This document shows positions 29,096-53,257 of a DNA stretch of 53,257 nucleotides, piece after piece. This stretch comes from Patescibacteria group bacterium (lineage in GTDB: Bacteria > Patescibacteriota > Minisyncoccia > Minisyncoccales > JANBVM01). The stretch is from positions 1 through 53,257 of the forward strand of contig JANBVL010000004.1 in NCBI GenBank assembly GCA_024238995.1, read 5' to 3'. The translations under genes and the position numbers were made by a program. Every line of letters begins with the position of its first letter. Position 1 is the first letter of the stretch. The notes under the pieces are model-generated. The model did not search any database. It was not told the origin of the DNA and saw nothing but the letters and a program-made list of their open reading frames with translations.

Positions 29096-29107
29096 CCCAC
29101 ATTTATA

Positions 29108-38719: not shown

Positions 38720-38746
38720 TAAGACCTAAAATGTTAAAATACTTCA

Positions 38747-39535: not shown

Positions 39536-39562
39536 CGTTTTTTTATTTGAATTTGTTTGGTT

Positions 39563-39615: not shown

Positions 39616-39657
39616 CAACTTGGTTTGTTTGACGTCATTTTCAATGAAATTAAAATT

Positions 39658-39852
39658 ATGCTTGACGATAAAGACATCCAAAAATTTATAGAGGTTTTTC
39701 CTACCAAGGAAGAAGTAGTTAGTAAAGAAGATTTTAAAGATTTTAGAGAAGAAATGAGGAAAAGTTTTTCTGATTTACAAGCTTTAGTAGATGCTTACGC
39801 CAAAAAGGCAGATGTGTATTTTCAAGAAATGGTTGCTTTATTTTATAAGTAG
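39658..39852 (+). CDS. Small hypothetical protein (64 aa)
   Basis: The listed ORF (TTG 39547) runs through the hairpin repeats, so ATG 39658 (MLDDKDIQKF) is more plausible. It is charged and helical-looking with no recognisable motif, and it could be a gene remnant. Confidence 0.35.
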   Translation: MLDDKDIQKFIEVFPTKEEVVSKEDFKDFREEMRKSFSDLQALVDAYAKKADVYFQEMVALFYK

Positions 39853-39985
39853 ATTGTAAGGAAAAATGGATTAAATAAATTACTAAGAAACTAAGAGTAA
39901 AATTAAAGCGTTAATCTTACTAATTTTGAATTACTTTCACTAACGTTCTTTAAGGACTGTTTTTTACGTTTCATCAGTAGAATTT

Positions 39986-40004
39986 GGTCGGCTGAGCCTA
40001 TGGC
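39986..40004. repeat. Degenerate copy of the hairpin repeat family
   Basis: ggtcggcTGAgcctatggc is preceded by cgtttc, in the same relative arrangement as copy 40624-40642. The stem is only partial. Confidence 0.35.
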
Positions 40005-40097
40005 TTGACATAAATTGTAAAGCAAAATACTCTAAGAATAGAATTAATTTTGTAATGCTTTTTAGAAATCATAAATTTCTGAATAAAGCAAAGAACT

Positions 40098-40343
40098 ATG
40101 AAACTATACATTGTTAATTATATAGAAAAACTCTTACGCAAAGCAGAATATGAACATGATGAAGAAACGAGAAGCTGGTGCGCCAGTATAAAAGAATTAC
40201 CAGGAGCTTATGCTCAAGCTAATACCATAGAAGAAGTAAGGGAACAGTTAGCTGAAGTAATCGAGGATTATATTCTAGTAAGTCTTCGAGAAAAACATTC
40301 TTTGCCAGGGTTTAAGAAGCTGTCCACTAAAGTACATGCCTAA
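40098..40343 (+). CDS. hicB: HicB-family antitoxin (short, no DNA-binding extension)
   Basis: 81 aa. SWCASIKELPGAYAQANTIEEVREQLAEVIEDY matches the HicB/UPF0150 core. There is an 8-nt overlap with the downstream hicA. Confidence 0.75.
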   Translation: MKLYIVNYIEKLLRKAEYEHDEETRSWCASIKELPGAYAQANTIEEVREQLAEVIEDYILVSLREKHSLPGFKKLSTKVHA

Positions 40344-40554
40344 ACTTTCGCCTCTTTCTCGAAGAATCTTAATAAAGAAATTAAGAAAGCTTGGGTTTTC
40401 TGGTCCCTACTCAGCTGCCAGGCATGAATACATGAAACGAAATAATGAAAAGATTTTCGTTCCTAACCCTCATGGGAAAGATATTGGCTTACCAATCATA
40501 AAGAAAATTATCCGACAACTCAAAATTTCAAATCGAGAATTTTTAGATTTATAA
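40336..40554 (+). CDS. hicA: HicA-family mRNA-interferase toxin
   Basis: 72 aa. LIKKLRKLGF...ARHEYM...IFVPNPHGKDIGLPIIKKIIRQLKIS matches the HicA/YcfA pattern. Confidence 0.75.
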   Translation: MPKLSPLSRRILIKKLRKLGFSGPYSAARHEYMKRNNEKIFVPNPHGKDIGLPIIKKIIRQLKISNREFLDL

Positions 40555-40583
40555 ATTGCTTTACGTTAGATTTATTCTCTCTA

Positions 40584-40607
40584 ACAGCTTTCAAAGGGCT
40601 GTTTTTT
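40584..40607 (+). terminator. Weak hairpin terminator after hicA
   Basis: Stem acagc / gctgt with a 9-nt loop and a T6 run. A related degenerate sequence lies at about 39935-39967. Confidence 0.4.
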
Positions 40608-40623
40608 CTTGCGTTTCTTCTTT

Positions 40624-40691
40624 GGACAGACTTAGTTTATCCAAATTTCTTTTGCGTTTCTTTTACATTTAGGATGAGCTTAGCTCATCCT
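40624..40691. repeat. Two hairpin units of the GCTTAGC family (copies 5 and 6)
   Basis: ggacagacTTAgtttatcc (40624-40642) and aggatgagcTTAgctcatcct (40671-40691, a perfect 9-bp stem). Each is preceded by ttgcgtttctt. Confidence 0.6.
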
Positions 40692-40742
40692 CTTCAATAC
40701 ACCCTCCTTTTTCTTTTTTTTTCGTTGTAGTAAAATAAAAGA

Positions 40743-43700: not shown

Positions 43701-44300
43701 TCAACTGATCTTAATTCTACAAATCCACCTGATAATAATGATGATATTATAAAATCTACATGGTCAATCTTTTATCAAGGCGGCACTCCTTGGCAGGATC
43801 CTTATGTTATTTGTAATGATGATGATCAGACACAGGAAAATGAGGCAATTTGTGATATTTTAATGCCCTTACTTCCAGCAAGTGAAAATTATTATGTTGC
43901 TTTAACTGTTGAAGATAAAGCTGAGGTAACGGATCAGCAAAACAAGAACTTTTACGTTAAAAGTGAAATAGCTACTGATTTTCAATGTTCTTCTGCTGAA
44001 GGTGGCTGGCAGTCTTGTGATGGTTTCGTATCTTCTGAAGGTGAAATTGTGGAATTCCAAGATATTACTATCGTTTCTGAAGGAGCGACAGGAATTAGTA
44101 GTTGGATCTGGACTTTTGAAGATGGCGATCCAGCCACTAGCAATATTCAAAATCCCTCAGCAAGCTTTGTTAATATTGATGGTAGTTCTGGTACAGTAAC
44201 ATTAGAAGTGACAGATGATACAGGAAGAATTGATACACAAAGCTATCAGTTACAGATTACAATTCCTTTACCAGAATGGTATGAGGTTACTCCTTTTTAA
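40743..44300 (+). CDS. Large secreted multidomain protein: signal peptide, 4x GW(A)WSxxIGWISF repeats, Ig-like modules, PKD-like modules, Cys-rich module (candidate pilus-associated adhesin)
   Basis: 1185 aa with signal peptide ...FGKANA|G and four N-terminal repeats (aa 38-166). There are DTxxP-bounded Ig-like units and PKD-like signatures (YTWDFGDG, YGFIFGDG, WIWTFEDGD). About 22 Cys fall in aa 728-856. The stop overlaps the next ORF. Confidence 0.85.
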   Translation: MLKKKIFSKNIKFFLLIFIITLSFFVFGKANAGTNDNVSGWAWSENIGWISFNCNNPELPQPRCSPNYGVKVSTSTGDFSGYAWSENIGWISFEESDLVGCPPIFPSCKANLNLQTNEVSGWAKALDIQEWIRLRNSTYGIYRNSSTNEFEDWAWSDQTIGWISFNSATGGGPIQYAVVIDIDTIDPEATSFGTDPSDPNWINGADPNLTVSWTVTDGGGSHLNYVEVWRADDVGGSPGTWTMVGDNYYAPVGSDFWASSTTHSTSDYLQDGIWWYGLHVIDNNGNWADEGGPVKVRVDTTEPNSQIQSPSSGTWYSNDFSLDTLDEDLGSGLDNGLCEYKIIPYEDTNGDGIAETERTSSGWLSRTCNSLSTIITVGTADYCKYQAEDACWVNIHSTDNAGNQHSESVESGSIKNYHIDWTYPEVGIVSPVIAEQGVEQTFSASLSDAVGRVPYCWFYVDGQSTSTEFITISPSPCENGASCTVTTTHQFLDPGDYSVRFACQDAASNLTWGISTSVSVSETNAPIITSLGYFTSHSSTPGQQCTDQFVCCTEPTTQTDCNIKFNISAYDPDGSPLGYTWDFGDGAPESNEEDPSHYYYTANTYNAVVDVFDGIDHTYDSLGVLVTNPTVSVSLTADPSFGINSLSNVDLSTIVSGSMSGTISYRFDCTNNGDWELEALHQSVSTFTAVDLCNYASSGIYTAKVSIDRGDGNNIIDTTEINVETSECIPDQQTNCTSPQGCPHTITCQQDGTWPSCPTNECVKDSTRSCENCGEQICSSTCEWGVCEGGEGCTVGPDCPDCPCLPDVCVGQDYYDYPDFGDCDASCVCNTGANPGEPCELNIIIDDLRCNEAPVCDSLIAAPEQGAAPVEISFTGLGHDNDGSIIDYGFIFGDGSSSTTTFDNISHIYNTPGTYCAKLKIKDNDGVWSATPGDCPDVCAKQINISENTPPVASVACDGSGCGPGSACDGIWVAYNRNCDFYFLNQSTDLNSTNPPDNNDDIIKSTWSIFYQGGTPWQDPYVICNDDDQTQENEAICDILMPLLPASENYYVALTVEDKAEVTDQQNKNFYVKSEIATDFQCSSAEGGWQSCDGFVSSEGEIVEFQDITIVSEGATGISSWIWTFEDGDPATSNIQNPSASFVNIDGSSGTVTLEVTDDTGRIDTQSYQLQITIPLPEWYEVTPF

Positions 44301-44362
44301 TGATGAACCCTTTAATTATGTTAAAGGATAAAAACTTTAAGTTTTTATTATTGTTTAAAAAT

Positions 44363-44932
44363 ATGAGAAAAAATAATAACACAGGATTCACACTTGCCGA
44401 GCTTCTTATTGTGATCACTATCATTCTCCTTTTTTTCCCAATGGTTATTTCAAATTATAATACTAGTGAAAAGCAGTTTTCTCTTTATAGGTCAGCTCAT
44501 AATCTGGCTCAGGATTTAAGAGACACACAAGAAATGGCAATGACAGGACAATTAACTCCTCTTAGTTTTGACCAGAGTTTCCCAAGAGGAGGATACGGAC
44601 TTTATTTTAAAGATTTAAAAAATTCATATATATTATTTGCAGATTGTGATGGTGATAATGAATATGATTCAGAAGGTATAGCTGCAACTTGTACTGATGC
44701 AACCGTAGAAGATCCTTATCCTGAAAAGCTCCAAGACTTATCTTTAGAGCCCGGAGTTTTGATTTCTAATATAATTCCTCAGTCTCCACTAGTAATCACT
44801 TTTTTGCCTCCAACTCCTCTTATAACCATAAATCCTCAACCTTTTGATAATCAAGCAGTAATTAGTTTAACATTTAGTAGAAACACAAAAACCGTCAGCA
44901 TTAATACAGTTGGCTTAATAGATGTTGATTAA
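44363..44932 (+). CDS. Minor pilin, GspH/FimT-like (TG|FTLAELLIV)
   Basis: The probable start is ATG 44363 (MRKNNNTGFTLAELL), while the listed ORF starts at 44300. It has a prepilin motif with E+5 and a FSLYRSAHNLAQDLRDTQEMA helix typical of GspH/FimT-like pilins. Confidence 0.75.
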   Translation: MRKNNNTGFTLAELLIVITIILLFFPMVISNYNTSEKQFSLYRSAHNLAQDLRDTQEMAMTGQLTPLSFDQSFPRGGYGLYFKDLKNSYILFADCDGDNEYDSEGIAATCTDATVEDPYPEKLQDLSLEPGVLISNIIPQSPLVITFLPPTPLITINPQPFDNQAVISLTFSRNTKTVSINTVGLIDVD

Positions 44933-45509
44933 GAATAAACAAAAAAAAGAGTATGGTTTTACTTTAATAGAAGTGATTGTAGCGATTTTTATTTTGACTG
45001 TTGGCATTGGAGGCTCATTCATGTTAATTCAGCAAACCCTTGCTGGTGTTTCAACAGTTCAATCAAGATTAATTGCTATTTATTTAGGCCAAGAGGGTAT
45101 TGAGATAATAAGGAATATAAGAGACAATAATTGGCTTGAACAGCGTGAATCTTTACAGATTCCTCCCCAACCTTTATGGAATGATGGTTTAACCGGTTTA
45201 ATTAATTGCCAGCCTTCTGCAAGTTGTTGCGAGGCTGATTATAATACAGATACTTCTCCATCAGATCCTTTGGTTGTTGTTGCTGGATGTGATTTCAGTG
45301 ATCTTCATTATCTTAACTTTGATAATAGTGGGTTTTATAGCTATTCAGCTGGTACACAAACAAAATTCAAAAGAAAGATTTTTATTGAAGAAATTGATGA
45401 GAATAAAATGAAAATCACAGTTATAGTTCAGTGGAAAGAAAAAAACAAGCTTCATGAGATTAAAGTGATAGAACATATAACCAACTGGTATAAACAGCGC
45501 ATTCAATAA
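44922..45509 (+). CDS. Minor pilin, PilV-like (YG|FTLIEVIVAIFIL)
   Basis: 195 aa with a prepilin motif and a VGIGGSFMLIQ segment as in PilV-type pilins. There is an 11-nt overlap with the upstream gene. Confidence 0.7.
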   Translation: MLIKNKQKKEYGFTLIEVIVAIFILTVGIGGSFMLIQQTLAGVSTVQSRLIAIYLGQEGIEIIRNIRDNNWLEQRESLQIPPQPLWNDGLTGLINCQPSASCCEADYNTDTSPSDPLVVVAGCDFSDLHYLNFDNSGFYSYSAGTQTKFKRKIFIEEIDENKMKITVIVQWKEKNKLHEIKVIEHITNWYKQRIQ

Positions 45510-45514
45510 AAAGC

Positions 45515-46117
45515 ATGAAACCTTTTAAGCAGAACAAAAAACAAAAAGCTTATACACTGATTGAAGTTTTGATAGCAGTAGCAATTTTTTTTACTGTTAT
45601 TGCAGGACCAACAGGTCTTTTTATTCTTTCATTGAAAAGCCAAAATAGAATTCTTGGTTCAAGAGAAATTCTTGATAATAGTTCTCATGTTCTTGAGTAT
45701 ATGAGCAGAGCCTTAAGAATGGCAAAAAAAGAACTGAATTGTGGTGATAGATGGGAACCAGAAACATGTTTTTGTTTAAAAGACAATGGTTATGGTTTTA
45801 ATTATGAAATCACGTATCAGGGGAAAGGAATAAAGTTTAACAATGCTCAAGATCCATCAATTTGCCAGGAATTTTTTTGGGATACAATTGATAATAGATT
45901 GAAAGAATCAAAAGATGGGGCAGGGGCTGTTCCTTTAACTTCTGATGATTTAGAAGTCGTTTTATTTAAATTCAAAGAATTTGGTTTTACTCAAAGTGAT
46001 AATATTCAACCAAGAGTTGTTATTTTCCTTGAAATGAGAAAAAAGAACGAACTTGAATCTCCTAAAATTAAAATTCAAACCACAATTTCTCAAAGAAAAT
46101 TAGATGTTATGTATTAG
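45515..46117 (+). CDS. Minor pilin, PilW-like (KA|YTLIEVLIAV)
   Basis: 200 aa with a prepilin-type N-terminus (Ala at -1, E+5) and LEYMSRALRMAKK resembling the PilW helix. Confidence 0.65.
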   Translation: MKPFKQNKKQKAYTLIEVLIAVAIFFTVIAGPTGLFILSLKSQNRILGSREILDNSSHVLEYMSRALRMAKKELNCGDRWEPETCFCLKDNGYGFNYEITYQGKGIKFNNAQDPSICQEFFWDTIDNRLKESKDGAGAVPLTSDDLEVVLFKFKEFGFTQSDNIQPRVVIFLEMRKKNELESPKIKIQTTISQRKLDVMY

Positions 46118-46144
46118 AAAGATTATTAAACCTTGATAAATTTA

Positions 46145-46498
46145 ATGAAAAGTAAAATATATAAGAGACAACAAGGCATTGCAGTTTTATTTGCTGTATC
46201 AATACTAAGTGTTATTTTAACAATTAGTTTGGGGGTAAGTGTAATATTAGTCAAGCAGATAAAAGCAATAACAGAAATTGGTTACTCAGCAATTGCTTTT
46301 TATGCAGCTGATAATGGCATTGAAGAAGTGTTGTCAATGACAGACCCTGTTGATATTCCAGAGACCAGTTTAAATGGTAGTAAATATGAAGTTTCTGTTA
46401 AAGACAGCAATCATCCTGATTGTGATGCAGCTAATTATTGTATAAAGTCAGTTGGTAGTTACAAAGGGACCAAGCGTGCTATTGAGATTAAATACTAA
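46145..46498 (+). CDS. PilX-like pilus protein (non-canonical hydrophobic N-terminus QQGIAVLFAVSIL)
   Basis: ATG 46145 is preferred over the listed TTG 46133. It has a PilX-N-like QxGxAxL start, no E+5, and is last in the operon before a terminator. Confidence 0.55.
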   Translation: MKSKIYKRQQGIAVLFAVSILSVILTISLGVSVILVKQIKAITEIGYSAIAFYAADNGIEEVLSMTDPVDIPETSLNGSKYEVSVKDSNHPDCDAANYCIKSVGSYKGTKRAIEIKY

Positions 46499-46610: not shown

Positions 46611-48647
46611 ATGAACAAACAAGAAGCTAAAAAAAGAGTTGATAAGTTAAAAGAGCTGATTGATCGTCACCGCTACCTTTATCATGTTTTAAATAAACAG
46701 GAAATCTCTGATGATGCCCTGGACTCTCTAAAACGTGAGCTTTACCGATTAGAGCAGGAATTTTCTGAACTTATTACAGCTGATTCTCCTACCCAGCGAG
46801 TTGCTGGTAAGCCTTTAGATAAATTCAAAAAGATAAAACACAGAGAGCCAATGCTTTCTATTGAAGATGTTTTTTCAAAAAAAGAGCTTGAAAGTTGGGA
46901 AAAATATTTAAAGAAAATTAGTGATTTCGATGATTATTTCTTAGAGCCTAAAATTGATGGTTTTGCTGTTGCTTTAGTTTACAAAAAGGGCGTGTTGTTA
47001 AGCGCTGCTACAAGAGGCGACGGTAGAATTGGAGAAGATGTTACTCAAAACATTAAAACAATAGAAAGTATTCCTTTAAAATTAGAGATTAATTTATTAA
47101 AAAATAAAATTAAAAAAAATATTAAAATAAAATTAAAAGAATTTATTAAAAATAAAATAATTGAAATTCGGGGTGAAGTCTATATGGAAAGAAAAGATTT
47201 TGAAAAATTAAATAAAAAATTAAAAAAACAAGGAAAAAAAACATTTGCCAATCCAAGAAATCTGGCAGCTGGTTCAATCCGTCAGTTGGATCCTAAACTT
47301 GCTGCTTCCAGGCCTTTAAAATTTTTTGCCTATGACATTATTACTGATGTAGGTCAAAAGATACATTATCAAAGCCATCAAATTTTGACCTGTTTAGGAT
47401 TTAAAACAGATATTGGCAAGGTTGCCAAAAGCATTGATCAAATCGTAGATTATTGGCAACGGATTTCACAGAAAAGAGAAAGTTTTTCTTTTCAAATAGA
47501 TGGAGTTGTGGTTAGTATTAATGACTTAAAAAGTTTTCAAAAACTAGGAATTGTTGGTAAAAGTCCAAGGGGCATAAGGGCATTTAAGTTTTCTCCGAAA
47601 GAAGCAACAACTATTATCAAAGATATAAGAATTCAGGTTGGAAGAACCGGAGCTATAACCCCAGTAGCTGTTTTAAAACCAGTGGAGATCGGCGGTGTTG
47701 TTGTATCACGAGCAACACTTCATAATACTGATGAAATCAAGAAATTAGGCGTAAAAATTAATGATACAGTATCTGTTGTGAGGTCGGGTGATGTGATACC
47801 AGCTATAAAAAAAGTGTTTAAAGAACTGCGGACAGGAAAGGAAAGAAAATTTAAAATGCCGGCAAAATGTCCATCTTGCAATACACTTCTTGTTAAACTC
47901 GAAAAAGAAGTAGTTTGGCGTTGTCCAAACACGAATTGCTTTGCTAGGAAAAGAAAATATTTTTATCACTTTGTATCAAAAGGAGCATTTGATATTGTTG
48001 GACTTGGTCCTCAAATTATTAATAGATTGATTGAACAGGGCATTATCTCTGATCCAGCTGATTTATTCACCTTGAAAGAGCAGGATATAGCTTCTTTGGA
48101 GCGTTTCGCTGAAAAATCAAGCAAGAATCTTATTGAATCTATTCAGTCTCATAAGGAGATTAGTCTTTCAAAATTCATTTATTCTTTGGGCATCAGAAAT
48201 ATAGGGGAGCAAACTGCTAGGGATTTAACTGAATACTTTAATTCATTAGAAAAATTAGAAAAATCTTCCTTGAAAGAGCTTGAAAATATTAAAGATATCG
48301 GCCCAATAGTGGCAAAATCAATTTATAATTTTTTTAATAATAAAAATAATTTACAATTTATTAAAAAATTAAAAAAAATAGGAATAAAAATAAAAATAAA
48401 AAAAATAATAAGGAAAAATCAAAAATTTAAAGATTTAATTTTTATTTTAACAGGAACTTTATCTTCAATAAGTAGAAGAGGGGCAGAAGAAAAAATACGT
48501 TCTTTAGGGGGTGAAGTCTCTGGATCTATTTCGTCAAAAACTAGCTATTTAATAGTTGGGAAAGAGCCTGGTTTAAAGCTCAAAAAAGCAAGGAAACTAG
48601 GCACTAAAATCATGCAAGAAAAGGACTTTGTAAAAATGCTAAAATAG
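46611..48647 (+). CDS. ligA: NAD-dependent DNA ligase LigA
   Basis: 678 aa with the adenylation Lys context LEPKIDG. It has a zinc finger CPSC..(x13)..C....C, HhH repeats and a C-terminal BRCT (FILTGTL...KTSYLIVG). Two K/I-rich low-complexity stretches are present. Confidence 0.9.
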   Translation: MNKQEAKKRVDKLKELIDRHRYLYHVLNKQEISDDALDSLKRELYRLEQEFSELITADSPTQRVAGKPLDKFKKIKHREPMLSIEDVFSKKELESWEKYLKKISDFDDYFLEPKIDGFAVALVYKKGVLLSAATRGDGRIGEDVTQNIKTIESIPLKLEINLLKNKIKKNIKIKLKEFIKNKIIEIRGEVYMERKDFEKLNKKLKKQGKKTFANPRNLAAGSIRQLDPKLAASRPLKFFAYDIITDVGQKIHYQSHQILTCLGFKTDIGKVAKSIDQIVDYWQRISQKRESFSFQIDGVVVSINDLKSFQKLGIVGKSPRGIRAFKFSPKEATTIIKDIRIQVGRTGAITPVAVLKPVEIGGVVVSRATLHNTDEIKKLGVKINDTVSVVRSGDVIPAIKKVFKELRTGKERKFKMPAKCPSCNTLLVKLEKEVVWRCPNTNCFARKRKYFYHFVSKGAFDIVGLGPQIINRLIEQGIISDPADLFTLKEQDIASLERFAEKSSKNLIESIQSHKEISLSKFIYSLGIRNIGEQTARDLTEYFNSLEKLEKSSLKELENIKDIGPIVAKSIYNFFNNKNNLQFIKKLKKIGIKIKIKKIIRKNQKFKDLIFILTGTLSSISRRGAEEKIRSLGGEVSGSISSKTSYLIVGKEPGLKLKKARKLGTKIMQEKDFVKMLK

Positions 48648-48747
48648 TTCTAAAATTAAACCAAAGCATGTTGTTAAATTATGAGTTTTTGCTTAAAAAG
48701 GCGAAAGAAATAAGTGTTAGAATTAAACCAGCATACTTTGCTCAATT

Positions 48748-49848
48748 ATGAATCTTTTTTTATCTCATTTGAAAAAACTGGACTGGACTTTAATTGCTAC
48801 CGTCATTTTTCTAGTTGGTTTTGGTCTATTATCAATTTATAGCTCTTCTCTTGGAAGAGATGATTTTTTAAATTTTAAAAAACAAATCATATTTTCTCTT
48901 ATAGGATTTTTATTGATGTTTTTAGTGAGCTTTATTGACTGGAGAGTATTTCAAATAGATTCTTACCTAATTTTAATTCTATATTTTTTATGTATTGTTC
49001 TTCTTTTTGGAGTCTTTTTTCTTACAGAAGAAATTAGAGGAGTTAAAGGATGGTATAGAATAGGACCAGTTTCTTTTGATCCCATTGAGCCAACCAAGAT
49101 TATTTTGATAATCTTATTGGCAAAATACTTTTCAATGAGACATGTTGAAATATATAGAGTTATTCACATAATGATTTCTGGTCTTTATGTTTTAATTCCT
49201 TCAGTTTTAATTTTTTTCCAACCAGACTTAGGTTCAGTCTTGGTTTTAGTTAGTTTATGGATTGGTATTTTACTTATTTCAGGTATTAAACTTCGTCATT
49301 TTTTTATTTTATTATTAGTGGGTGTTTTAATTTTAACTTTTAGTTGGTCAACAATTTTAAAAGATTATCAAAAACAAAGATTATTAAGCTTTATTAAACC
49401 TCAACTATCGGACCCTCTTGAAATTGGCTGGAATCAAAGACAAGCAGAGATCGCTATTGGTTCTGGAGGCTTATTAGGGCAGGGTATTTTAAAGGGTTCT
49501 CAAACTCAACACGGCTTTTTACCAGAACCTCAGACTGATTTCATATTTTCTTCTATTGCCGAAGAAACAGGCTTAATAGGAGTTAGTGTATTATTAGTTG
49601 TTTTTTCTTTTTTAATCTGGAGAATGTTTAAAATCGCTATTAAAACTAAGTCCAATTTTGCGCGTCTTTTTGCTGCTGGATTAAGTGTTTTAATGCTTTC
49701 TCAATACTTTATTCACGTGGGTATGAATCTTGGTCTTTTGCCTATTATTGGAATTTCTCTTCCATTGGTTAGTTATGGAGGATCGGGTCTGCTGGCAATG
49801 TTTATTGCTCTAGGTATTTTACAGAGTATTTATATTCAGAATAAGTAA
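48748..49848 (+). CDS. FtsW/RodA/SpoVE-family peptidoglycan glycosyltransferase
   Basis: 366 aa and polytopic, with QPDLGS, LPEPQTDFIFS and PLVSYGGSG signatures. FtsW cannot be separated from RodA by eye. Confidence 0.85.
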   Translation: MNLFLSHLKKLDWTLIATVIFLVGFGLLSIYSSSLGRDDFLNFKKQIIFSLIGFLLMFLVSFIDWRVFQIDSYLILILYFLCIVLLFGVFFLTEEIRGVKGWYRIGPVSFDPIEPTKIILIILLAKYFSMRHVEIYRVIHIMISGLYVLIPSVLIFFQPDLGSVLVLVSLWIGILLISGIKLRHFFILLLVGVLILTFSWSTILKDYQKQRLLSFIKPQLSDPLEIGWNQRQAEIAIGSGGLLGQGILKGSQTQHGFLPEPQTDFIFSSIAEETGLIGVSVLLVVFSFLIWRMFKIAIKTKSNFARLFAAGLSVLMLSQYFIHVGMNLGLLPIIGISLPLVSYGGSGLLAMFIALGILQSIYIQNK

Positions 49849-49914
49849 ATAAAATAAGTATCGGATAAAAAACGATATCTGCATTAGTATCGGATTTATT
49901 CATAAGTTATTCAC

Positions 49915-49944
49915 AAATAGCGCTTGACAGCGCTATTTGTTTTT
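49915..49944 (+). terminator. Hairpin (9-bp perfect inverted repeat) plus T-run downstream of the FtsW/RodA gene
   Basis: aaatagcgc-TTGACA-gcgctattt is followed by gttttt. It may double as an operator (see findings). Confidence 0.5.
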
Positions 49945-49952
49945 AAGATAAT
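49924..49952 (+). promoter_or_regulatory. Candidate promoter TTGACA-17-GATAAT upstream of the terminal giant ORF
   Basis: The consensus -35 lies in the hairpin loop (49924-49929), then a 17-nt spacer, then GATAAT at 49947-49952. It is about 125 nt upstream of ATG 50078. Confidence 0.35.
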
Positions 49953-50077
49953 AAGATAAGTTAAAGTTTTTTGAAATTTAAAAAAAAGAAGGCTCCAAAT
50001 AAAACGCTCTTACCTGTTTTTTTGTTACCTTCTTTATTTAAGAATAACAAATTTTTTTCTTTTGTCAATATTTTTAA

Positions 50078-53000
50078 ATGAATAAAAAAGAAAATCAAAA
50101 ACAATTTATAACGCTTCAACAGGCAACTAAATATTGTGATTATTCACAAGAGTATTTAAGTTTAAGAGCAAGACAAGGAAAATTAAAAGCTTTAAAAATT
50201 AAAAGAAATTGGGTTACTAAAAAAAATTGGTTAGATGAGTATTTAGGAAATCCAAACAATTATATTTCATTAAAAGAGGCAATAAGCTACTGCGATTATT
50301 CAAAAGATTACTTGAGTTTAAGAGCAAGACAAGGAAAATTAAAAGCAGTGAAATTTGGAAAAAACTGGATGACTAAAAAAACATGGTTGGATATATATTT
50401 AAGAAAGAATCAAAAGCAAATCAAACAGGAAGTTGTCAAAAATAAAGCTGTAAGAATTTTACCTGCTCCAGATAATTTACCCACTGAGGAATCTCAACCA
50501 AACGTTGAAGTAGTTAAGCGTTTGCCAATTTTTAGAATACTCCATACAGGAGTTATTTCGCTTTTAATAATAGGTCTGCTTGTTTCAGGATCACTTGTCG
50601 GAAAGAGTCTCTTTTCAAAAACATTAATGCCTTATTTGGCCAAAACACATAATGTTGTTGGCGGATTTTTAGACGATTCAATTTTACCAATAGTTGAAAA
50701 ATCTCCAATATTAAAAAGTGTTTTGTTTAGTATTGCAGGAGTTGGAGAAGGCGTTGGTGATATTTTTAGAGCATATTTTTCCTGGCTTGGAAATTCTCTT
50801 AAATCAATATCTCAAAAAATCACAAGAACTTATTTTGTTTTTCATAGTTCTTTTGATGAAAGTACAAAACAAGGCTTTGATGTAATTAAAAACTTTTTTT
50901 CTTATTTTCCAAAAACACTTAAAAACTTTTTCTCTTTTGAAAGACTTTTAACAGAAAAAATTTTTGTAGAGACAGAAGAAAGATTAACTGAAAAATTAAT
51001 CCAGGCCTTCCAACAAAGCTTCGACAAACTAGTACAAGAAGGAATTCCATCAAAACAAGTAATAACTGAAATCCAACCAATAAAGGAAATAACAAGAGAA
51101 GTAAGAATAATAGATTCAGCATCATTAGTTCAGTTAAGAGCTGACATGGAATATGTACAAGCTGAACTAGCTAATAGATTGTATGCCCCAGGGGGAGTAA
51201 TAACCCAGCAGATATATGTCACCCAACCAATACAATCACCTAAAATATATCAGGAGAATGGTGACATAGTACTTCAAACCATTGGTTCAGGCAATATCAT
51301 ACTATCAGCAGCCACAGGATTACAGCTTCATGGCAGCCAGGTAGTAATTGACTCAACCAGCATACTTAATCCTTTAATATACTTGGCTGACGAAACAAGA
51401 ATTGATGGACCCTTAACAGCTCAGCGTATCACACTCAATGCTCCAGAATCATACACTGGCAATATATTAGACGTTAGCTCTGTATTCACGGTCAACAATA
51501 CAGGAGCTACATTAGTGGGTGACTTTACAGTAACAGGTAATTTATCAATAGGCGGTCTATCACTTAATGGGCCATTGGTAATTACTGCCTCTTCTACTTC
51601 TTCTTTATTAACAATAACTCAACAAGGTTCAGGATATGGAGCAATAATCACTGGTGGATATGTTGGTATTGCCACCACAACACCCAACTATCCATTACAT
51701 GTCTGGGGCAGTGCTGGCTTTGGCACTTCAACTACTCTTGCATTATATGTTGATTCAGGCAATGGAAGAGTTGGTATTGCCACCACTACTCCTAGTCAAG
51801 CTCTTCATGTAGTAGGTAATATCTTAGGTTCAGGCAATGCTGTTTTTGAAGGTATTTTAGATGTGCAAGGCTATACCACTTCCACGTTTGCAGGACCCGT
51901 TAAGATTACCACTACTACTCAACCTCAACTTGTTATTGGATATAGTTCAACAACCTATTCAACTTTTTCAGTTGATTCAAATGGCAGTACTGCTCTAGTG
52001 TCTACAGGACCTCTTAATCTAACAGGCTCTGGTTCTTCTGTTTGGCAAACAACTGATTATGGAAGCTTAACTATCCAAAGCGCTAGCTCAACAGAAATCA
52101 TATCTGGTGATACCTTAACTGCTAGTTCAACTAATGAAATAATTTTGGTTGTTGATGGACAGGAAAGAGTAAAGATTAATAGCAGTGGCTATGTTGGCAT
52201 TGCCACTACAACGCCTAACTACGAACTCCATGTCTGGGGCTCAGCTGGCTTTGGCACTTCTACTATACCCACCCTGTACGTTGATTCAGGAAATGGAAGA
52301 ATTGGTGTTGGTACTACAACTCCAAGAGCAAATCTAGAAGTTGCTGGATCTGCTTTATTTACTGACGCAACTACAACTAATTTCTCAATTAGCGGAATCG
52401 TTGGTTCAATTCAATGTTTGCAGATAGATAATACTGGTAATGTATCAGGAGCAGGTGTTGCTTGTGGAGGAGGGGGTGGAGGTTCAGGATTATGGGCTAG
52501 CAGTTCAGACAGTTTAAGGATATACCCAAGTGTTTTATCACGTGTAGTTGTTGTTGGAGCAAATGTCACAAGTTCAGATTTAGCAATATTTGAGGTTGAT
52601 GGAGGAGCTTTTTTTGACGATGCGACTACAACTAATTTTGAAGTTACAGGAAATGTTTTCTTGCCAAATAACAGCATAACTGACCTTATGCTGGTAGATA
52701 CTATTACTGCTAGTAACTACCTGTCATTAACAGACTGGTATTCAACCACTACAGATGGTTTAGATGAAGGAAGCAGTAATAAATACTATTCAACACAATT
52801 GTTTGCTGCTGACCTGGCTGCTACTACCACTAATGCTCTAGCTGAAGGAGGCAGTAACCTATATTTTACTGACGAGAGAACAGATGACAGGGTTAATGCT
52901 TTGCTGGTTGCAGGGACTGATGTAGATCTGGTTTATGATGATACTGGCAATAGTTTAACTATATATGCCACTAACACAGACACTACTTATTCAGCAGGAG

Positions 53001-53257
53001 GAACCTTGATCGACTTAACAGGAACTGTTTTCAGTGTTAATGAAGGAACATTAACAGATACCAAGGCTTGTATCTATTCTTCTGGAACTGGATTGGTCTG
53101 TGATTCTACATTCCTAACTTCATATACAGAAACTGATCCTATCTGGACAGCTTCTTCAACAGACTGGTTTAAGCTATCTAACTGGTATTCAACCACTACA
53201 GATGGTTTAGATGAAGGAAGCAGTAATAAATACTATTCAACACAATTGTTTGCTGCT
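50078..53257 (+). CDS. Partial (3'-open) giant protein: 2x excisionase/MerR-type HTH modules, one TM helix, tail-fibre-like repeat ectodomain
   Basis: It is absent from the ORF track because no stop is reached. I translated every line in frame from 50078 to 53257 (1060 codons) and found no stop. TAA at 50075-50077 closes the frame upstream. Strong amino-acid repeats and a coding-like composition support it. Confidence 0.85.
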   Translation, partial: MNKKENQKQFITLQQATKYCDYSQEYLSLRARQGKLKALKIKRNWVTKKNWLDEYLGNPNNYISLKEAISYCDYSKDYLSLRARQGKLKAVKFGKNWMTKKTWLDIYLRKNQKQIKQEVVKNKAVRILPAPDNLPTEESQPNVEVVKRLPIFRILHTGVISLLIIGLLVSGSLVGKSLFSKTLMPYLAKTHNVVGGFLDDSILPIVEKSPILKSVLFSIAGVGEGVGDIFRAYFSWLGNSLKSISQKITRTYFVFHSSFDESTKQGFDVIKNFFSYFPKTLKNFFSFERLLTEKIFVETEERLTEKLIQAFQQSFDKLVQEGIPSKQVITEIQPIKEITREVRIIDSASLVQLRADMEYVQAELANRLYAPGGVITQQIYVTQPIQSPKIYQENGDIVLQTIGSGNIILSAATGLQLHGSQVVIDSTSILNPLIYLADETRIDGPLTAQRITLNAPESYTGNILDVSSVFTVNNTGATLVGDFTVTGNLSIGGLSLNGPLVITASSTSSLLTITQQGSGYGAIITGGYVGIATTTPNYPLHVWGSAGFGTSTTLALYVDSGNGRVGIATTTPSQALHVVGNILGSGNAVFEGILDVQGYTTSTFAGPVKITTTTQPQLVIGYSSTTYSTFSVDSNGSTALVSTGPLNLTGSGSSVWQTTDYGSLTIQSASSTEIISGDTLTASSTNEIILVVDGQERVKINSSGYVGIATTTPNYELHVWGSAGFGTSTIPTLYVDSGNGRIGVGTTTPRANLEVAGSALFTDATTTNFSISGIVGSIQCLQIDNTGNVSGAGVACGGGGGGSGLWASSSDSLRIYPSVLSRVVVVGANVTSSDLAIFEVDGGAFFDDATTTNFEVTGNVFLPNNSITDLMLVDTITASNYLSLTDWYSTTTDGLDEGSSNKYYSTQLFAADLAATTTNALAEGGSNLYFTDERTDDRVNALLVAGTDVDLVYDDTGNSLTIYATNTDTTYSAGGTLIDLTGTVFSVNEGTLTDTKACIYSSGTGLVCDSTFLTSYTETDPIWTASSTDWFKLSNWYSTTTDGLDEGSSNKYYSTQLFAA
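50105..50401 (+). repeat. Tandem in-frame duplication encoding two HTH modules (52-aa period)
   Basis: aa 10-56 and aa 62-108 are about two-thirds identical by my count. They share an exact 32-nt core agtttaagagcaagacaaggaaaattaaaagc at 50159-50190 and 50315-50346. Confidence 0.85.
51656..51820 (+). repeat. Fibre repeat unit copy 1 (GYVGIATTTPNYPLHVWGSAGFGTST..LYVDSGNGRVGIATTTP)
   Basis: It is highly similar at the DNA and protein level to 52187-52351, with a 177-aa period. Confidence 0.8.
52187..52351 (+). repeat. Fibre repeat unit copy 2 (GYVGIATTTPNYELHVWGSAGFGTST..LYVDSGNGRIGVGTTTP)
   Basis: See copy 1. Confidence 0.8.
52734..52810 (+). repeat. Exact 77-bp direct repeat, copy 1
   Basis: actggtattcaaccactacagatggtttagatgaaggaagcagtaataaatactattcaacacaattgtttgctgct is identical to 53181-53257. 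Confidence 0.9.
53181..53257 (+). repeat. Exact 77-bp direct repeat, copy 2 (runs into the window edge)
   Basis: Identical to 52734-52810. The identity may continue beyond the window. Confidence 0.9.

What the first reader, a model, noticed from the sequence alone, without database searches (positions are those of the whole stretch)
50078..53257. Unlisted giant open-ended ORF: two cytoplasmic excisionase-type HTH modules tethered by one TM helix to a tail-fibre-like ectodomain of more than 880 aa
The supplied ORF track has nothing on the + strand after 49848. Line-by-line translation from ATG 50078 to the last base gives 1060 codons with no stop.

Residues 10-56 and 62-108 are a tandem duplication. 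Their pattern is [IL]-[ST]-L-x-[EQ]-A-x6-S-x2-Y-L-x3-A-R-x-G-K-L-K-A-x-K-x2-[RK]-N-W-x-T-K-K-x-W-L-x2-Y-L. I recognise this as the MerR/excisionase-type HTH (HTH_17-like).

A basic stretch (VVKRLPIFR) and a ~22-residue hydrophobic helix (aa ~151-175) then predict an N-in topology. The remainder is Thr/Ser/Gly-rich with 177-aa-period repeats (GYVGIATTTPNYxLHVWGSAGFGTST, LYVDSGNGRxG), a Gly6 run, and DGLDEGSSNKYYST / EGGSNLYFTDERTDDR motifs. These resemble motifs I remember from phage tail-fibre proteins.

A DNA-binding-type module fused through the membrane to a surface fibre echoes ToxR/CadC one-component logic, but with a fibre as the outside part. In a putatively episymbiotic CPR cell this could couple host or surface contact directly to transcription. 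I am not aware of a functional description of this architecture.
Basis: partly seen in the sequence, partly recalled or inferred. Interest (0 to 1): 0.8.

Follow-up and report, generated by a model that had tools for sequence, protein, structure and literature searches.

The report
DNA-binding head on giant surface fibre
The open-ended gene is real and belongs to a large, undescribed family in tiny Patescibacteria (CPR bacteria), in which DNA-binding modules inside the cell are joined through one membrane segment to a giant outer fibre; these genes share a specific 9-base DNA site at their promoters, which suggests but does not prove that the protein regulates genes from the membrane.

Summary
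ATG 50078 opens 1060 stop-free codons that run off the window.

- **Architecture.** Residues 10-56 and 62-108 are tandem Xis/BldC/MerR-type winged helices (Pfam HTH_17 above its cut-off; AF2 pLDDT ~94; Foldseek matches to TraN, Xis and BldC). One hydrophobic segment (aa 149-175) follows, with a strong N-in charge bias. The rest is a Thr/Ser/Gly-rich repetitive ectodomain with weak phage-fibre similarity.
- **Family.** This is not a one-off. It is a Patescibacteria family with 1623 cluster representatives and 344 loci in species genomes. All share a near-invariant HTH (1-3 copies), a PPxNLP[IV]E linker motif, a conserved membrane segment and highly variable giant ectodomains.
- **Synteny.** The window gene belongs to a positional orthologue group, ligA-ftsW/rodA-HTH-fibre.
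- **Promoter.** Family promoters carry a family-specific 9-bp palindrome, TATC(C/G)GATA. It clusters near -65 and +20 around a sigma-70-type promoter that also has a DnaA-box-like TTATCCACA.

Best reading: a membrane-anchored transcription regulator whose sensor is a giant fibre and which auto-regulates through that palindrome. DNA binding is not shown. I rate it a new variant of a known kind.

The parts
49859..49867 (.). Family-specific operator-like palindrome TATCGGATA, site 1, about -98 from the predicted transcription start
   Evidence: An exact AGTATCGGAT direct repeat is conserved in the orthologous locus L001 and found nowhere else in either.
49888..49895 (.). Second TATCGGAT site (8 of 9 of the palindrome), about -69 from the predicted transcription start, abutting the DnaA-box-like element
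   Evidence: The -60 to -70 position is the main peak for this motif across 40 family promoters.
49907..49915 (+). DnaA-box-like element TTATTCACA (TTATNCACA), 8 nt upstream of the -35
   Evidence: TTAT[CT]CACA-N6-14-TTGAC occurs 47 times in 513 kb, and at least 41 of those lie in front of family genes. The same promoter class precedes ORFs I identified by eye as dnaA, nrdR, lexA, mraZ and ssb on unrelated low-GC contigs.
49913..49940 (+).
   Evidence: dG -16.5 kcal/mol, z = -5.0. Compensatory stem changes occur in L001 to L004. A stem of at least 5 bp around TTGAC is seen in 13 of 40 family promoters against 10 of 125 generic promoters.
49924..49952 (+). Sigma-70-type promoter: TTGACA (49924-49929), 17 nt, GATAAT (49947-49952)
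   Evidence: 11 of 12 consensus matches. Both hexamers are conserved in the orthologous loci.
49986..50034 (+). Conserved leader inverted repeat AAGAAGG...CCTTCTT in the roughly 118-nt 5' UTR
   Evidence: Read directly from the sequence. It is conserved in L001 to L004. No Rfam family matches. Its function is unknown.
50078..53257 (+). Open-ended coding sequence, 1060 codons; the 3' end lies beyond the window
   Evidence: The syntenic orthologue P0001 is 1277 aa as called, and longer in reality because of an assembly gap in its first HTH copy.
50105..50245 (+). Winged-helix HTH copy 1 (aa 10-56)
   Evidence: AF2 topology is beta-alpha-alpha-beta-beta-alpha with pLDDT about 94. Foldseek matches TraN, Xis and BldC. 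Near-invariant family consensus.
50261..50401 (+). Winged-helix HTH copy 2 (aa 62-108)
   Evidence: This is the best Pfam HTH_17 stretch, aa 62-111.
50462..50491 (+). Linker short linear motif PAPDNLPTEE (family consensus PPxNLP[IV][EG]) in a disordered cytoplasmic linker
   Evidence: Present in 80 of 187 members about 24 aa before the membrane segment, against 2 of 187 in control segments. The linker has pLDDT below 55.
50522..50602 (+). Single hydrophobic segment (aa 149-175): signal-anchor, or possibly a cleavable h-region
   Evidence: Hydropathy. Family pattern R, about 12 hydrophobic residues, [TG][GN]x[VI]FG, then KE; net charge +2.0 before against +0.1 after. AF2 helix 152-182.
51176..51409 (+). 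Conserved 'stalk-base' segment (aa 367-444, RLYAPGGVITQQIY...PKIYQENGDIVLQ...), part of the region conserved from aa ~340 to ~520
   Evidence: 45-63% identical in at least 30 family members.
51656..52324 (+). Fibre repeats with a 177-aa period (aa 527-572 and 704-749; GxVGIATTTP...LHVWGSAGFGTST...)
   Evidence: PHROG hits phrog_5906 (2e-12) and phrog_9942 'tail fiber protein' (1e-4).
52844..53245 (+). Phage-structural-protein-like region (aa 923-1056, including EGGSNLYFTDERTDDR)
   Evidence: tblastn matched 156 phage records, mostly T4-like cyanophages, at about 37% identity and E down to 4e-8. They are annotated 'structural protein' or 'YadA domain-containing structural protein'.

Best explanation
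**What it is.** The ORF is the 5' four-fifths of a gene for a single-pass, N-in membrane protein of a large Patescibacteria-specific family.

- Inside the cell are two (in relatives one to three) Xis/BldC/MerR-type winged-helix DNA-binding modules.
- A disordered linker with a PPxNLP[IV]E motif follows.
- Then comes one conserved hydrophobic segment.
- Outside is a giant, probably trimeric, phage-fibre-like ectodomain that varies freely between family members.

These parts are shown.

**How it most likely works (inferred).** The invariant HTH modules bind the family-specific 9-bp palindrome TATC(C/G)GATA. This site brackets the gene's own sigma-70-type promoter, near -65 upstream and near +20 downstream in many relatives. 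The protein would therefore act as a transmembrane transcription regulator that auto-regulates, and cross-regulates, the HTH-fibre genes.

- It could act from the membrane, as ToxR and CadC do.
- It could instead act after proteolytic release of the HTH head.
- Either way, the amount or state of the surface fibre would be fed back to transcription.

The DnaA-box-like TTATNCACA next to the -35 is probably read by DnaA. That would tie expression to the cell cycle, in keeping with the conserved position behind ftsW/rodA.
For: **Architecture**
- ORF and start codon.
- HTH_17 at 31.9 bits against a cut-off of 27.
- AF2 pLDDT about 94 with winged-helix topology.
- Foldseek: TraN tandem wHTH at prob 0.99; Xis, RdfS and BldC at rmsd 1.5-2.2 A.
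- One hydrophobic segment in 119 of 120 homologues.
- N-region net charge +8.5 against -1.7; in the query, K+R = 32 against D+E = 14.

**Family size and spread**
- 1623 representatives at E <= 1e-10.
- 344 loci in species genomes.
- Ectodomain Pfam domains include LamG, beta-helix, collagen, FG-GAP, BNR, deacetylase and Peptidase_S74.

**Operator**
- TATCGGA occurs in 63 of 79 upstream regions, against 6 of 69 and 5 of 67 controls.
- The 9-mer TATC[CG]GATA occurs at 2.0 per kb upstream against 0.146 per kb elsewhere.
- Against other intergenic DNA in the same loci, the figures are 3.31 and 0.77 sites per kb.
- Only 5 of 122 generic TTATCCACA promoters carry it.
- Positions peak at -60 to -70 and at +3 to +45.
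- In an independent 674-kb sample, the only tight pair of sites lies upstream of the only family gene.
- In the window and in L001, the AGTATCGGAT pair occurs only at this promoter.

**Logic**
- The recognition helix and wing (YSQEYLSLRARQGKLKAxKxGRNW) are near-invariant across proteins with unrelated ectodomains. This parallels the invariance of the DNA motif.
- The HTH is the one DNA-binding domain always present where the motif is.

**Precedent**
- Single-pass transmembrane transcription regulators are widespread (PMC10269533).
Against: - No direct evidence shows that this HTH binds DNA at all, or binds this motif.
- A 69-aa stand-alone MerR-like gene lies next to the family gene in about 14 of 80 loci, with 4-6 sites in between. 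It could be the real regulator there.
- The shared TTATCCACA promoter also drives unrelated cell-cycle genes, so part of the conserved promoter does not depend on the HTH.
- An identical recognition surface in all paralogues means no target diversification. That also fits a common protein partner.
- The V-F-G|K-E end of the hydrophobic segment fits the signal peptidase (-3,-1) rule. The fibre may therefore not stay attached to the HTH.
- The hits came partly from a word-indexed search, which favours conserved HTHs. This is mitigated by the index-free search.
- Many of the 80 loci are orthologues, so the counts are not fully independent.
Confidence: 0.45

Rival explanations
1. **Docking handle, not a transcription factor (RodZ-like logic).** The cytoplasmic winged helices and the PPxNLP[IV]E motif would bind a conserved protein. 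Candidates are a cytoskeletal, divisome or elongasome component, or a dedicated export or sorting factor. This would anchor or position giant surface fibres. The TATC(C/G)GATA sites would then be read by another regulator, for example the 69-aa MerR-like protein.
For: - The module is invariant in all paralogues, as expected for one common partner.
- An additional conserved linear motif and a sequence-conserved membrane segment suggest protein contacts.
- Synteny directly behind ftsW/rodA holds in 44 of 71 loci, down to 44% identity.
- The small MerR-like gene neighbours the family gene in about 14 of 80 loci.
- From established knowledge: RodZ uses a cytoplasmic HTH to bind MreB, not DNA.
Against: - The module is strongly basic (K+R = 32 against D+E = 14 in aa 1-148).
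- Its closest structural relatives are all DNA binders: TraN, Xis, RdfS, BldC, RacA and MerR.
- A family-specific DNA motif tracks exactly the genes that encode this HTH, including loci without ftsW or the small gene.
- There is no RodZ-type XRE HTH or DUF4115.
Confidence: 0.22
2. **Very long cleavable leader.** The hydrophobic segment would be the h-region of an extended signal peptide, cut by signal peptidase I after ...VFG (in the query, near SGS/LVG at aa ~172-175). The fibre would be released from the HTH. The HTH-linker-TM stub would remain, or be freed by a signal-peptide peptidase. One HTH would be produced per exported fibre, giving export-coupled feedback.
For: - The family pattern is R, about 12 hydrophobic residues, a helix-breaking G or N, [VI]-F-G, then K-E. 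This obeys the (-3,-1) rule.
- The uncharged span is only 19 residues in about half of the members.
- Extended conserved N-terminal leaders on very large secreted proteins are known: ESPR of autotransporters and KxYKxGKxW leaders of serine-rich adhesins (established knowledge).
Against: - No signal-peptide predictor was available.
- The AF2 model shows a continuous helix, aa 152-182, running past the putative site.
- Pfam gives no KxYKxGKxW or other leader family.
- A folded 50-110 aa DNA-binding domain is not a feature of any known leader.
Confidence: 0.15
3. **Structural DNA tether (RacA-like).** The HTHs would bind the palindromes to hold a chromosomal region, or the transcribing and translating gene itself, at the membrane under the fibre. 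This could, for example, orient the nucleoid towards an attachment pole, rather than regulate transcription.
For: - RacA appears among the fold matches.
- Sites also occur as clusters inside some family coding regions. There they are kept by biased codon choice: LSD is encoded TTATCCGAT in 11 of 38 cases against about 2.8% expected.
- A trimeric fibre would present 3-9 HTHs for multivalent binding (inference).
Against: - Sites concentrate at classic operator positions around the promoter.
- Only two sites exist in the 53-kb window, too few for a chromosome-organising system.
Confidence: 0.08
4. **Phase-variable promoter.** TATCCGATA and TATCGGATA would be inverted repeats of a recombinase-driven invertible promoter. 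The Xis-like HTH would act as a directionality factor.
For: - In several loci the two sites flank the promoter in opposite orientation, for example L046, L048, L053, L058 and L059.
- HTH_17 is the excisionase-type domain.
- Surface proteins are often phase-variable (established knowledge).
Against: - The flanked segment is only about 85-95 bp, shorter than known invertible switches.
- In the window and its orthologues, both or all sites lie upstream of the promoter.
- No recombinase gene is seen next to the loci.
- No locus was seen with its own promoter inverted; the reverse-oriented boxes belong to the divergent small gene.
Confidence: 0.04

Closest known systems
Transmembrane transcription regulators (TTRs): ToxR, TcpP, CadC, PsaE; surveyed by Demey et al. 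2023 (PMC10269533)
   Same: - Cytoplasmic N-terminal DNA-binding domain, one membrane segment, extracytoplasmic C-terminal part.
- Proposed to act on promoters from the membrane.
- Single-pass forms are the commonest TTRs.
   Different: - The DNA-binding domain is an Xis/MerR-type HTH_17 in 1-3 tandem copies, not an OmpR-type Trans_reg_C.
- The outside part is a fibre of 900 to more than 6000 aa with interchangeable adhesin or enzyme modules, instead of a small sensor domain.
- All paralogues keep the same recognition surface.
- The survey's main text does not mention Patescibacteria or HTH_17.
TraN of Enterococcus plasmid pIP501 (PDB 4pm3, 4p0z)
   Same: - Two excisionase-like winged-helix domains in tandem in one chain (an internal dimer).
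- Binds double-stranded DNA, according to the PDB entry titles.
- Best fold match, prob 0.99.
   Different: - TraN is a small soluble cytoplasmic protein of a conjugation system.
- It has no membrane segment and no ectodomain.
- Sequence identity is 18-20% and the TM-score of the pair is low (0.36-0.39), so the relative domain orientation differs.
Xis / RdfS excisionases and BldC (PDB 4j2n, 8dgl, 6ama)
   Same: - The single-module fold is beta-alpha-alpha-beta-beta(-alpha), with rmsd 1.5-2.2 A over about 49 residues.
- Pfam HTH_17 membership.
- BldC-type proteins bind repeated short sites cooperatively (established knowledge).
   Different: - Those are free proteins of 50-70 aa.
- TIGR01764 'excise' is below its cut-off here.
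- No recombinase context is present.
RodZ
   Same: Bitopic, with a cytoplasmic HTH, one TM segment and an outside domain. It is genetically and functionally linked to the SEDS/elongasome machinery. Here the gene sits directly behind ftsW/rodA.
   Different: - The RodZ HTH is XRE-type and binds MreB.
- Its outside part is small (DUF4115).
- Neither domain is detected here.
Phage tail fibres and tailspikes with a C-terminal intramolecular chaperone (Peptidase_S74)
   Same: - Repetitive Gly/Thr/Ser-rich GxVGIGTTxP units.
- Similarity to cyanophage structural proteins and to the PHROG 9942 tail-fibre family.
- Several family members end in Peptidase_S74. I also saw a similar-looking C-terminus by eye in P0122.
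   Different: - Encoded in a cellular genome among housekeeping genes.
- Anchored by an N-terminal membrane segment.
- No Pfam fibre family reaches significance in the visible 1060 aa.
- The fold could not be modelled (pLDDT 47.6).

Membership tests
Pfam HTH_17 (PF12728) / Xis-MerR-type winged helix | Profile score at or above the gathering cut-off (27 bits) | tested here: met
   31.9 bits with 2 stretches when aa 1-114 is scanned alone. It scores 22.9 bits when the whole 1060 aa is scanned.
Pfam HTH_17 (PF12728) / Xis-MerR-type winged helix | Fold: beta1-alpha1-alpha2-beta2-beta3 wing (-alpha3) | tested here: met
   The AF2 elements are E10-12 H13-17 H24-32 E38-41 E44-48 H49-55, and the same again for copy 2, at pLDDT about 94. 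Foldseek matches Xis 4j2n, RdfS 8dgl and BldC 6ama at rmsd 1.5-2.2 A.
Excisionase family (NCBIfam TIGR01764) | Score at or above the curated cut-off (28.8 bits) | tested here: not met
   23.6 bits for aa 1-114 and 14.9 bits for the full protein.
Excisionase family (NCBIfam TIGR01764) | Partner integrase or recombinase and an att-site context | tested here: not met
   The neighbours are ligA, ftsW/rodA, pilins and giant surface proteins. No recombinase is present in the loci examined.
MerR-family transcription regulators (sensu stricto) | N-terminal wHTH followed by a long dimerisation coiled-coil and an effector-binding region; operator in a 19-20-bp promoter spacer | tested here: not met
   No MerR Pfam family hit. 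Each HTH is followed by a second HTH or a disordered linker. The promoter spacer is 17 bp, and the sites lie at -65 and +20, not in the spacer.
ToxR/CadC-type transmembrane regulators | OmpR/PhoB-type winged helix (Trans_reg_C) | tested here: not met
   No Trans_reg_C hit even at E <= 1.
ToxR/CadC-type transmembrane regulators | Cytoplasmic DNA-binding domain, single TM segment, extracytoplasmic domain | tested here: met
   This is the architecture only.
Transmembrane transcription regulators (TTR, operational class of PMC10269533) | A recognised DNA-binding domain plus at least one transmembrane region in one protein | tested here: met
   HTH_17 plus one hydrophobic segment.
Transmembrane transcription regulators (TTR, operational class of PMC10269533) | Actual sequence-specific DNA binding and transcriptional control | not testable with these tools
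   Only indirect evidence: a family-specific palindrome at operator-like positions.
RodZ | XRE-type HTH (HTH_25) and a C-terminal DUF4115 | tested here: not met
   Neither appears in the Pfam scan.
Phage tail fibre / tailspike-like trimeric fibres | Significant similarity to annotated phage fibre or structural proteins | tested here: inconclusive
   phrog_9942 'tail fiber protein' at E = 1e-4 and phrog_5906 at 2e-12, function unknown. Cyanophage 'structural protein' at about 37% identity and E = 4e-8, covering only 24% of the query piece.
Phage tail fibre / tailspike-like trimeric fibres | C-terminal intramolecular chaperone (Peptidase_S74) or a modelled trimeric beta-helix | tested here: inconclusive
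   The C-terminus lies outside the window. S74 is present in relatives P0057, P0062, P0084, P0087, P0088 and P0110. It was not recognised by eye in the C-terminus of orthologue P0001. The AF2 monomer model is unusable (pLDDT 47.6).
Sec-type cleavable signal peptide (extended leader) | h-region followed by a c-region with small residues at -3 and -1 | tested here: inconclusive
   The pattern ...[VI]FG|KE fits the rule in most members, and SGS/LVG fits in the query. No predictor was available, and AF2 shows a continuous helix 152-182.

The most novel reading that the evidence does not exclude
**A bacterial 'Notch-like' contact sensor.** The giant fibre would bind a host cell or surface. Mechanical load or ligand binding would then trigger cleavage, either at the conserved membrane segment or at the PPxNLP[IV]E linker. 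The released winged-helix head would bind the TATC(C/G)GATA operators and reprogramme the whole set of HTH-fibre genes.

In an episymbiotic Patescibacteria cell this would couple physical attachment directly to transcription. It would need no two-component system.
Probability: 0.12. Interest if true: 0.92.

Novelty: new variant of a known kind. Interest (0 to 1): 0.7.

Why it matters
Patescibacteria (CPR) make up a large share of bacterial diversity. They live attached to other cells and have very few recognisable signalling systems. How they sense and hold on to hosts is an open question.

This work defines a family with 1623 cluster representatives. In it, giant and freely exchangeable surface fibres, adhesins and glycan-active modules are physically fused to an invariant DNA-binding head. 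It also identifies a candidate operator, TATC(C/G)GATA, and a conserved promoter design.

That turns a vague idea into experiments that can be done with purified protein and synthetic DNA, without culturing the organism. Three outcomes are possible:

- If the head binds the palindrome, this is a new and abundant route from the cell surface to the chromosome in reduced genomes.
- If it does not, the module is a new kind of sorting or anchoring handle for giant proteins.
- Either way, the motif and the HTH profile can be used to annotate thousands of 'hypothetical' giant genes.

Tried and rejected
- **Origin of replication.** Rejected. GC skew stays positive across 10-50 kb and changes sign near 8-10 kb. 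There is only one DnaA-box-like element here. The same element sits in front of many paralogous genes.
- **The composite promoter TTATCCACA-N9-TTGACA as family-specific.** Rejected. A metagenome scan, truncated at 120 loci, gave 0 of 122 followed by a family gene. On low-GC contigs it instead preceded ORFs I identified by eye as dnaA, nrdR, lexA, mraZ, ssb and NYN genes. Only the TATCGGAT part is family-specific.
Judged unlikely, because the stems covary between loci.
- **Ectodomain fold.** The AF2 model of aa 340-800 with 14 sequences gave pLDDT 47.6. No fold search was run on it.
- **PDB sequence searches.** Searches with aa 1-114 and with the HTH profile found nothing.
- **KxYKxGKxW-type leader.** The KAVKFGKNW string resembles it, but Pfam gave no hit at E <= 1. 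The string is the normal HTH_17 wing.
- **Soluble stand-alone copies of the family HTH.** The short database entries look like contig-end fragments.
- **DNA-uptake sequence.** Rejected for the 9-mer, because there are only 4 TATCGGA in 53 kb.
- **Rfam.** Nothing in the leader.
- **Literature.** Seven searches found no description of this family or motif. Only the general TTR survey was relevant.

Full report
**1. The observation**

Translation of window 50078-53257(+) gives 1060 codons without a stop. The codon just before it (50075) is a stop, and ATG 50078 is the first start codon after that stop. The window is 32.7% G+C.

Residues 10-56 and 62-108 are a tandem duplication. Copy 2 finds copy 1 at 67% identity (E = 2e-20) and nothing else in the 53 kb. 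There is exactly one hydrophobic segment, aa 149-175, preceded by VVKR.

Exact-word self-comparison confirms several features:
- a 177-aa period (aa 527->704);
- a further 149-aa period at the end (aa 887->1036);
- the Gly6 run (aa 797-802);
- the motifs DGLDEGSSNKYYST and EGGSNLYFTDERTDDR.

The ectodomain is 13% Thr, 11% Ser and 10% Gly.

**2. The N-terminal modules**

- Pfam HTH_17 scores 31.9 bits (cut-off 27) on aa 1-114, with both copies matched.
- NCBIfam 'excise' stays below its cut-off, at 23.6 against 28.8 bits.
- Several PHROG excisionase families match weakly.
- AlphaFold2 on an alignment of 16 two-copy N-termini gives pLDDT about 94 for both copies. Each has the topology beta-alpha-alpha-beta-beta-alpha. 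The linker (aa 122-150) is disordered, and a helix runs through aa 152-182.

Foldseek against the PDB gives these matches:
- For the pair: TraN of pIP501, a dsDNA-binding protein built from two excisionase-like domains (prob 0.99).
- For single copies: mycobacteriophage Xis, RdfS excisionase and BldC, at rmsd 1.5-2.2 A with target TM-score up to 0.74.
- Further down the list: RacA, lambda gpNu1 and MerR/SoxR.

Sequence searches of the PDB find nothing. The module is therefore an Xis/BldC/MerR-type winged helix. It is a member of HTH_17. It is not a MerR-family regulator in the strict sense, not a certified excisionase, and not an OmpR-type domain as in ToxR/CadC.

**3. It is a family**

The word-indexed search returned 162 hits, almost all from Patescibacteria lineages: Nealsonbacteria, Gribaldobacteria, Wildermuthbacteria, Komeilibacteria, Portnoybacteria and 'Parcubacteria'.

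Of the 120 listed hits, 119 have the module at the extreme N-terminus (100 with one copy, 20 with two). A linker follows, then exactly one hydrophobic segment, then a long C-terminal part.

Precomputed Pfam domains in those C-terminal parts are very diverse. They include Laminin_G_3, beta-helix/pectate-lyase/NosD, collagen, FG-GAP/VCBS, BNR, polysaccharide deacetylase, LVIVD, intein, NYN and Peptidase_S74.

An index-free HMMER search with a single-copy profile found 3844 representatives at E <= 1e-3 and 1623 at E <= 1e-10. It showed up to three copies and lengths up to 6890 aa. A scan of one genome per species found 344 loci from a single strict peptide pattern.

The module is extraordinarily conserved: YISLxEAxKYCxYSQEYLSLRARQGKLKAVKxGRNWVTKKEWLEEYL, with many invariant positions.

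Two more conserved cytoplasmic or membrane features emerged:
- A short linear motif PPxNLP[IV][EG] lies about 24 residues before the membrane segment in 80 of 187 members, against 2 of 187 controls. In the query it is PAPDNLPTEE, aa 129-138.
- The membrane segment itself is sequence-conserved: R, about 12 hydrophobic residues, [TG][GN]x[VI]FG, then KE.

**4. Topology**

There is no N-terminal signal sequence. The N-region carries on average +8.5 net charge, against -1.7 for an equal length after the segment. The 12 residues before the segment carry +2.0, against +0.1 after. N-in is therefore well supported.

Whether the segment stays as an anchor is open. Its V-F-G|K-E end fits the signal-peptidase (-3,-1) rule, and the uncharged span is only 19 residues in about half of the members. 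No predictor was available.

**5. Genomic context**

Upstream in the window are:
- a type IV pilus cluster (PilB-like 33041, T2SSE 35272, PilC 36375, prepilin peptidase 38747);
- a 1185-aa PKD protein (40743);
- three pilins (44300-46117);
- LigA (46611);
- FtsW/RodA (48748).

The best homologue, P0001 (59% identity), lies in the same gene order on a 240-kb contig. It is complete at 1277 aa and is followed, with gaps of 59 and 48 nt, by two further giant surface proteins that have ordinary N-termini. Its first HTH copy is interrupted by a run of N in the scaffold, so the gene caller started at an internal Met. It too has two copies.

Across the 71 family loci with enough upstream flank, FtsW/RodA lies directly upstream on the same strand in 44 (identity 44-82%). 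LigA is found in 37 loci. The window gene thus belongs to a deeply conserved positional orthologue group.

**6. The promoter and the cis-elements (new)**

The 229-bp region between ftsW and the ORF is 81% identical to that of L001. Comparison of 79 upstream regions revealed two recurrent elements.

*(a) TTAT[CT]CACA 8-10 nt upstream of a TTGAC(A) -35, with a (G)ATAAT -10 seventeen nt further on.*
- The composite occurs 47 times in 513 kb.
- At least 41 of those lie in front of family genes, and 5 lie in front of a 69-aa stand-alone MerR-like gene.
- TTATNCACA is the canonical DnaA-box consensus (established knowledge).
- A scan of metagenomes for the composite, truncated at 120 loci, found none in front of a family gene.
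- On low-GC contigs it preceded ORFs whose N-termini I recognise by eye as dnaA, nrdR, lexA, mraZ, ssb and NYN genes.
- This element therefore marks a general, probably DnaA-read, promoter class. It is not family-specific.

*(b) TATCGGAT, more exactly the 9-bp palindrome TATC(C/G)GATA.*
- It occurs in 63 of 79 upstream regions, against 6 of 69 and 5 of 67 control regions.
- The density is 3.35 per kb against 0.28 per kb elsewhere.
- The 9-mer occurs at 2.0 against 0.146 per kb, with a central C or G in 77 of 81 upstream sites.
- Against other intergenic DNA of the same loci, the figures are 3.31 against 0.77 per kb.
- Only 5 of 122 generic TTATCCACA promoters carry it.
- Relative to the predicted start, sites peak at -60 to -70 (either orientation, abutting the DnaA-like box) and at +3 to +45. 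These are typical operator positions.
- In the independent 674-kb metagenome sample, the only closely spaced pair of sites lies just upstream of the only family gene present (L118).
- In the window, the two sites (49859-49867 and 49888-49895) are the only such pair in 53 kb. The same pair is conserved in L001.

**7.

The palindrome at 49913-49940 folds at -16.5 kcal/mol (z = -5.0) and is followed by a T-run. Its loop is the -35 TTGACA.

In orthologues and in many other loci the stem sequence differs but pairing is kept. A stem of at least 5 bp around TTGAC is found in 13 of 40 family promoters, against 10 of 125 generic promoters.

The HTH is invariant while these stems vary. The hairpin is therefore best read as the terminator of the upstream gene overlapping the promoter, not as the HTH's target.

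**8. The ectodomain**

- No Pfam family matches the visible 885 residues.
- PHROG gives phrog_5906 (2e-12, function unknown) and phrog_9942 'tail fiber protein' (1e-4) on the GxVGIATTTP repeats.
- tblastn of aa 500-1060 against phage genomes matches 156 records, mostly T4-like cyanophages, at about 37% identity and E down to 4e-8. The match covers aa 923-1056. The genes are annotated as structural or YadA-domain structural proteins.
- A conserved 'stalk base' (aa ~340-520) is shared at 45-63% identity by at least 30 members.
- Several relatives end in the Peptidase_S74 intramolecular chaperone typical of trimeric phage fibres. I also recognised a similar-looking region by eye in P0122.
- The AF2 monomer model was unusable (pLDDT 47.6).

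'Tail-fibre-like' is therefore reasonable but only weakly tested for this protein.

**9. Mechanism**

*Shown:*
- the architecture;
- the fold of the head;
- the N-in charge bias;
- the size and distribution of the family;
- the family-specific palindrome at operator-like positions;
- the conserved promoter and synteny.

*Inferred:* the HTH binds the palindrome. The argument is one of co-occurrence and co-conservation. The HTH is the one DNA-binding domain that is always encoded where the motif is. Both are nearly invariant across deep lineages. The closest structural relatives are all DNA binders. The head is strongly basic (K+R = 32, D+E = 14 in aa 1-148).

The protein would then belong to the class of transmembrane transcription regulators, which are known to be widespread (PMC10269533). 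It would have a giant fibre in place of a small sensor domain, and one shared operator for all paralogues. That implies feedback on the fibre gene set as a whole.

Three things cannot be decided here:
- whether the head acts while tethered;
- whether it acts after release, through signal-peptidase plus peptidase or cleavage at the linker motif;
- whether it acts already co-translationally in cis.

Rivals are a RodZ-like protein-docking role, a long cleavable leader, a RacA-like DNA tether and an invertible promoter. Their weights are given in the rival section.

**10. Unexplained**

In several relatives, clusters of TTATCCGATA lie inside the coding region at aa ~390-476. They are read in frame as LSD[T/I] repeats. 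LSD is encoded TTATCCGAT in 11 of 38 cases, against about 2.8% expected from codon usage. This suggests selection on the DNA sequence within the gene.

**11. Novelty**

Seven literature searches found no description of the family, the motif or the promoter. Source annotations call the proteins hypothetical, or name them after an ectodomain module.

The general class is known, so I rate this a new variant of a known kind. A minority reading, proteolytic and contact-triggered release, would be categorically new for bacteria.

Noticed in passing
window 33041-46498: A type IV pilus gene cluster: PilB-like ATPase with an MshEN domain, a second T2SSE ATPase, PilC, prepilin peptidase, a 1185-aa PKD-repeat protein and three N_methyl pilins. 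The same block is syntenic in L001.
   Followed up: partly
window 46611-49848 and loci L002-L081: The gene order ligA, ftsW/rodA, HTH-fibre gene is conserved across distant Patescibacteria. FtsW/RodA lies directly upstream in 44 of 71 loci, at identities down to 44%. This hints at a link with cell-wall growth or division.
   Followed up: partly
L012, L014-L017, L023, L024, L030, L031, L033, L034, L039, L050, L075; also L111, L118: A 69-aa stand-alone MerR-like HTH gene (MKYITIKKASKLLHVTPLTLRNWDKKGILRPYR...) neighbours the family gene in about 14 of 80 loci. It has the same TTATCCACA-N9-TTGACA promoter. The gaps of 500-1000 nt between the two genes hold 4-6 TATC(C/G)GATA sites.
   Followed up: partly
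L012 4384-4417, L015 4147-4255, L024 4396-4417, L031 4273-4315 (inside family coding regions): Clusters of TTATCCGATA occur inside coding sequence, read in frame as LSD[T/I] repeats. The codon choice for LSD is about 10-fold biased towards the motif, which suggests DNA-level constraint.
   Followed up: partly
L082-L201 (metagenome loci): On low-GC contigs, the TTATCCACA-N8-10-TTGACA promoter precedes ORFs I identified by eye as dnaA (L148), nrdR (L146), lexA (L138, L139), mraZ (L164, L185), ssb (L133) and NYN genes (L123, L197). This looks like a DnaA-box promoter class for cell-cycle genes.
   Followed up: partly
window ~8000-10000: GC skew changes sign from negative to positive, and gene orientation switches from the minus to the plus strand, near 9.5 kb. 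This may be a replication origin or terminus. No TTATNCACA box lies there, and no ORF scanned with Pfam in the window is DnaA-like.
   Followed up: partly
window 2253-2575, 3268-3350, 3905-3976, 7451-7640, 13315-13467, 18153-18236, 21858-21929, 27814-27885, 29010-29236: Fifteen tRNA genes, including a run of four at 2253-2575. The ORFs listed at 2229-2594(-) and 2443-3210(+) overlap these tRNAs and are probably not genes.
   Followed up: no
window 7605-8363 (-): An ORF with a weak LAGLIDADG_3 homing-endonuclease match. Its end overlaps a tRNA at 7557-7640.
   Followed up: no
window 49986-49992 / 50028-50034: A conserved inverted repeat AAGAAGG...CCTTCTT in the roughly 118-nt leader, also present in L001 to L004. 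There is no obvious Shine-Dalgarno sequence before ATG 50078, and no Rfam match.
   Followed up: partly
L001 ~9845-9945: A run of N (scaffold gap) falls exactly inside the first HTH copy of the orthologue, so the public gene call starts at an internal Met. Many family loci end at contig ends. The tandem HTH and fibre repeats probably break short-read assemblies.
   Followed up: yes
record titles (L007-L009, L013, L020, L021, L066) and names (P0012, P0040, P0044): Some family loci are labelled Gammaproteobacteria, Burkholderiales, Omnitrophica, Bathyarchaeota or Sphaerochaetaceae. These are most likely mis-binned or mislabelled Patescibacteria contigs.
   Followed up: no
window 1125-2147 (-) and 10663-12552 (+): An HtrA-like protease (Trypsin_2 + PDZ) and FtsH are encoded in the window. 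Both are generic candidates for processing a membrane-anchored protein, but nothing links them to this gene.
   Followed up: no
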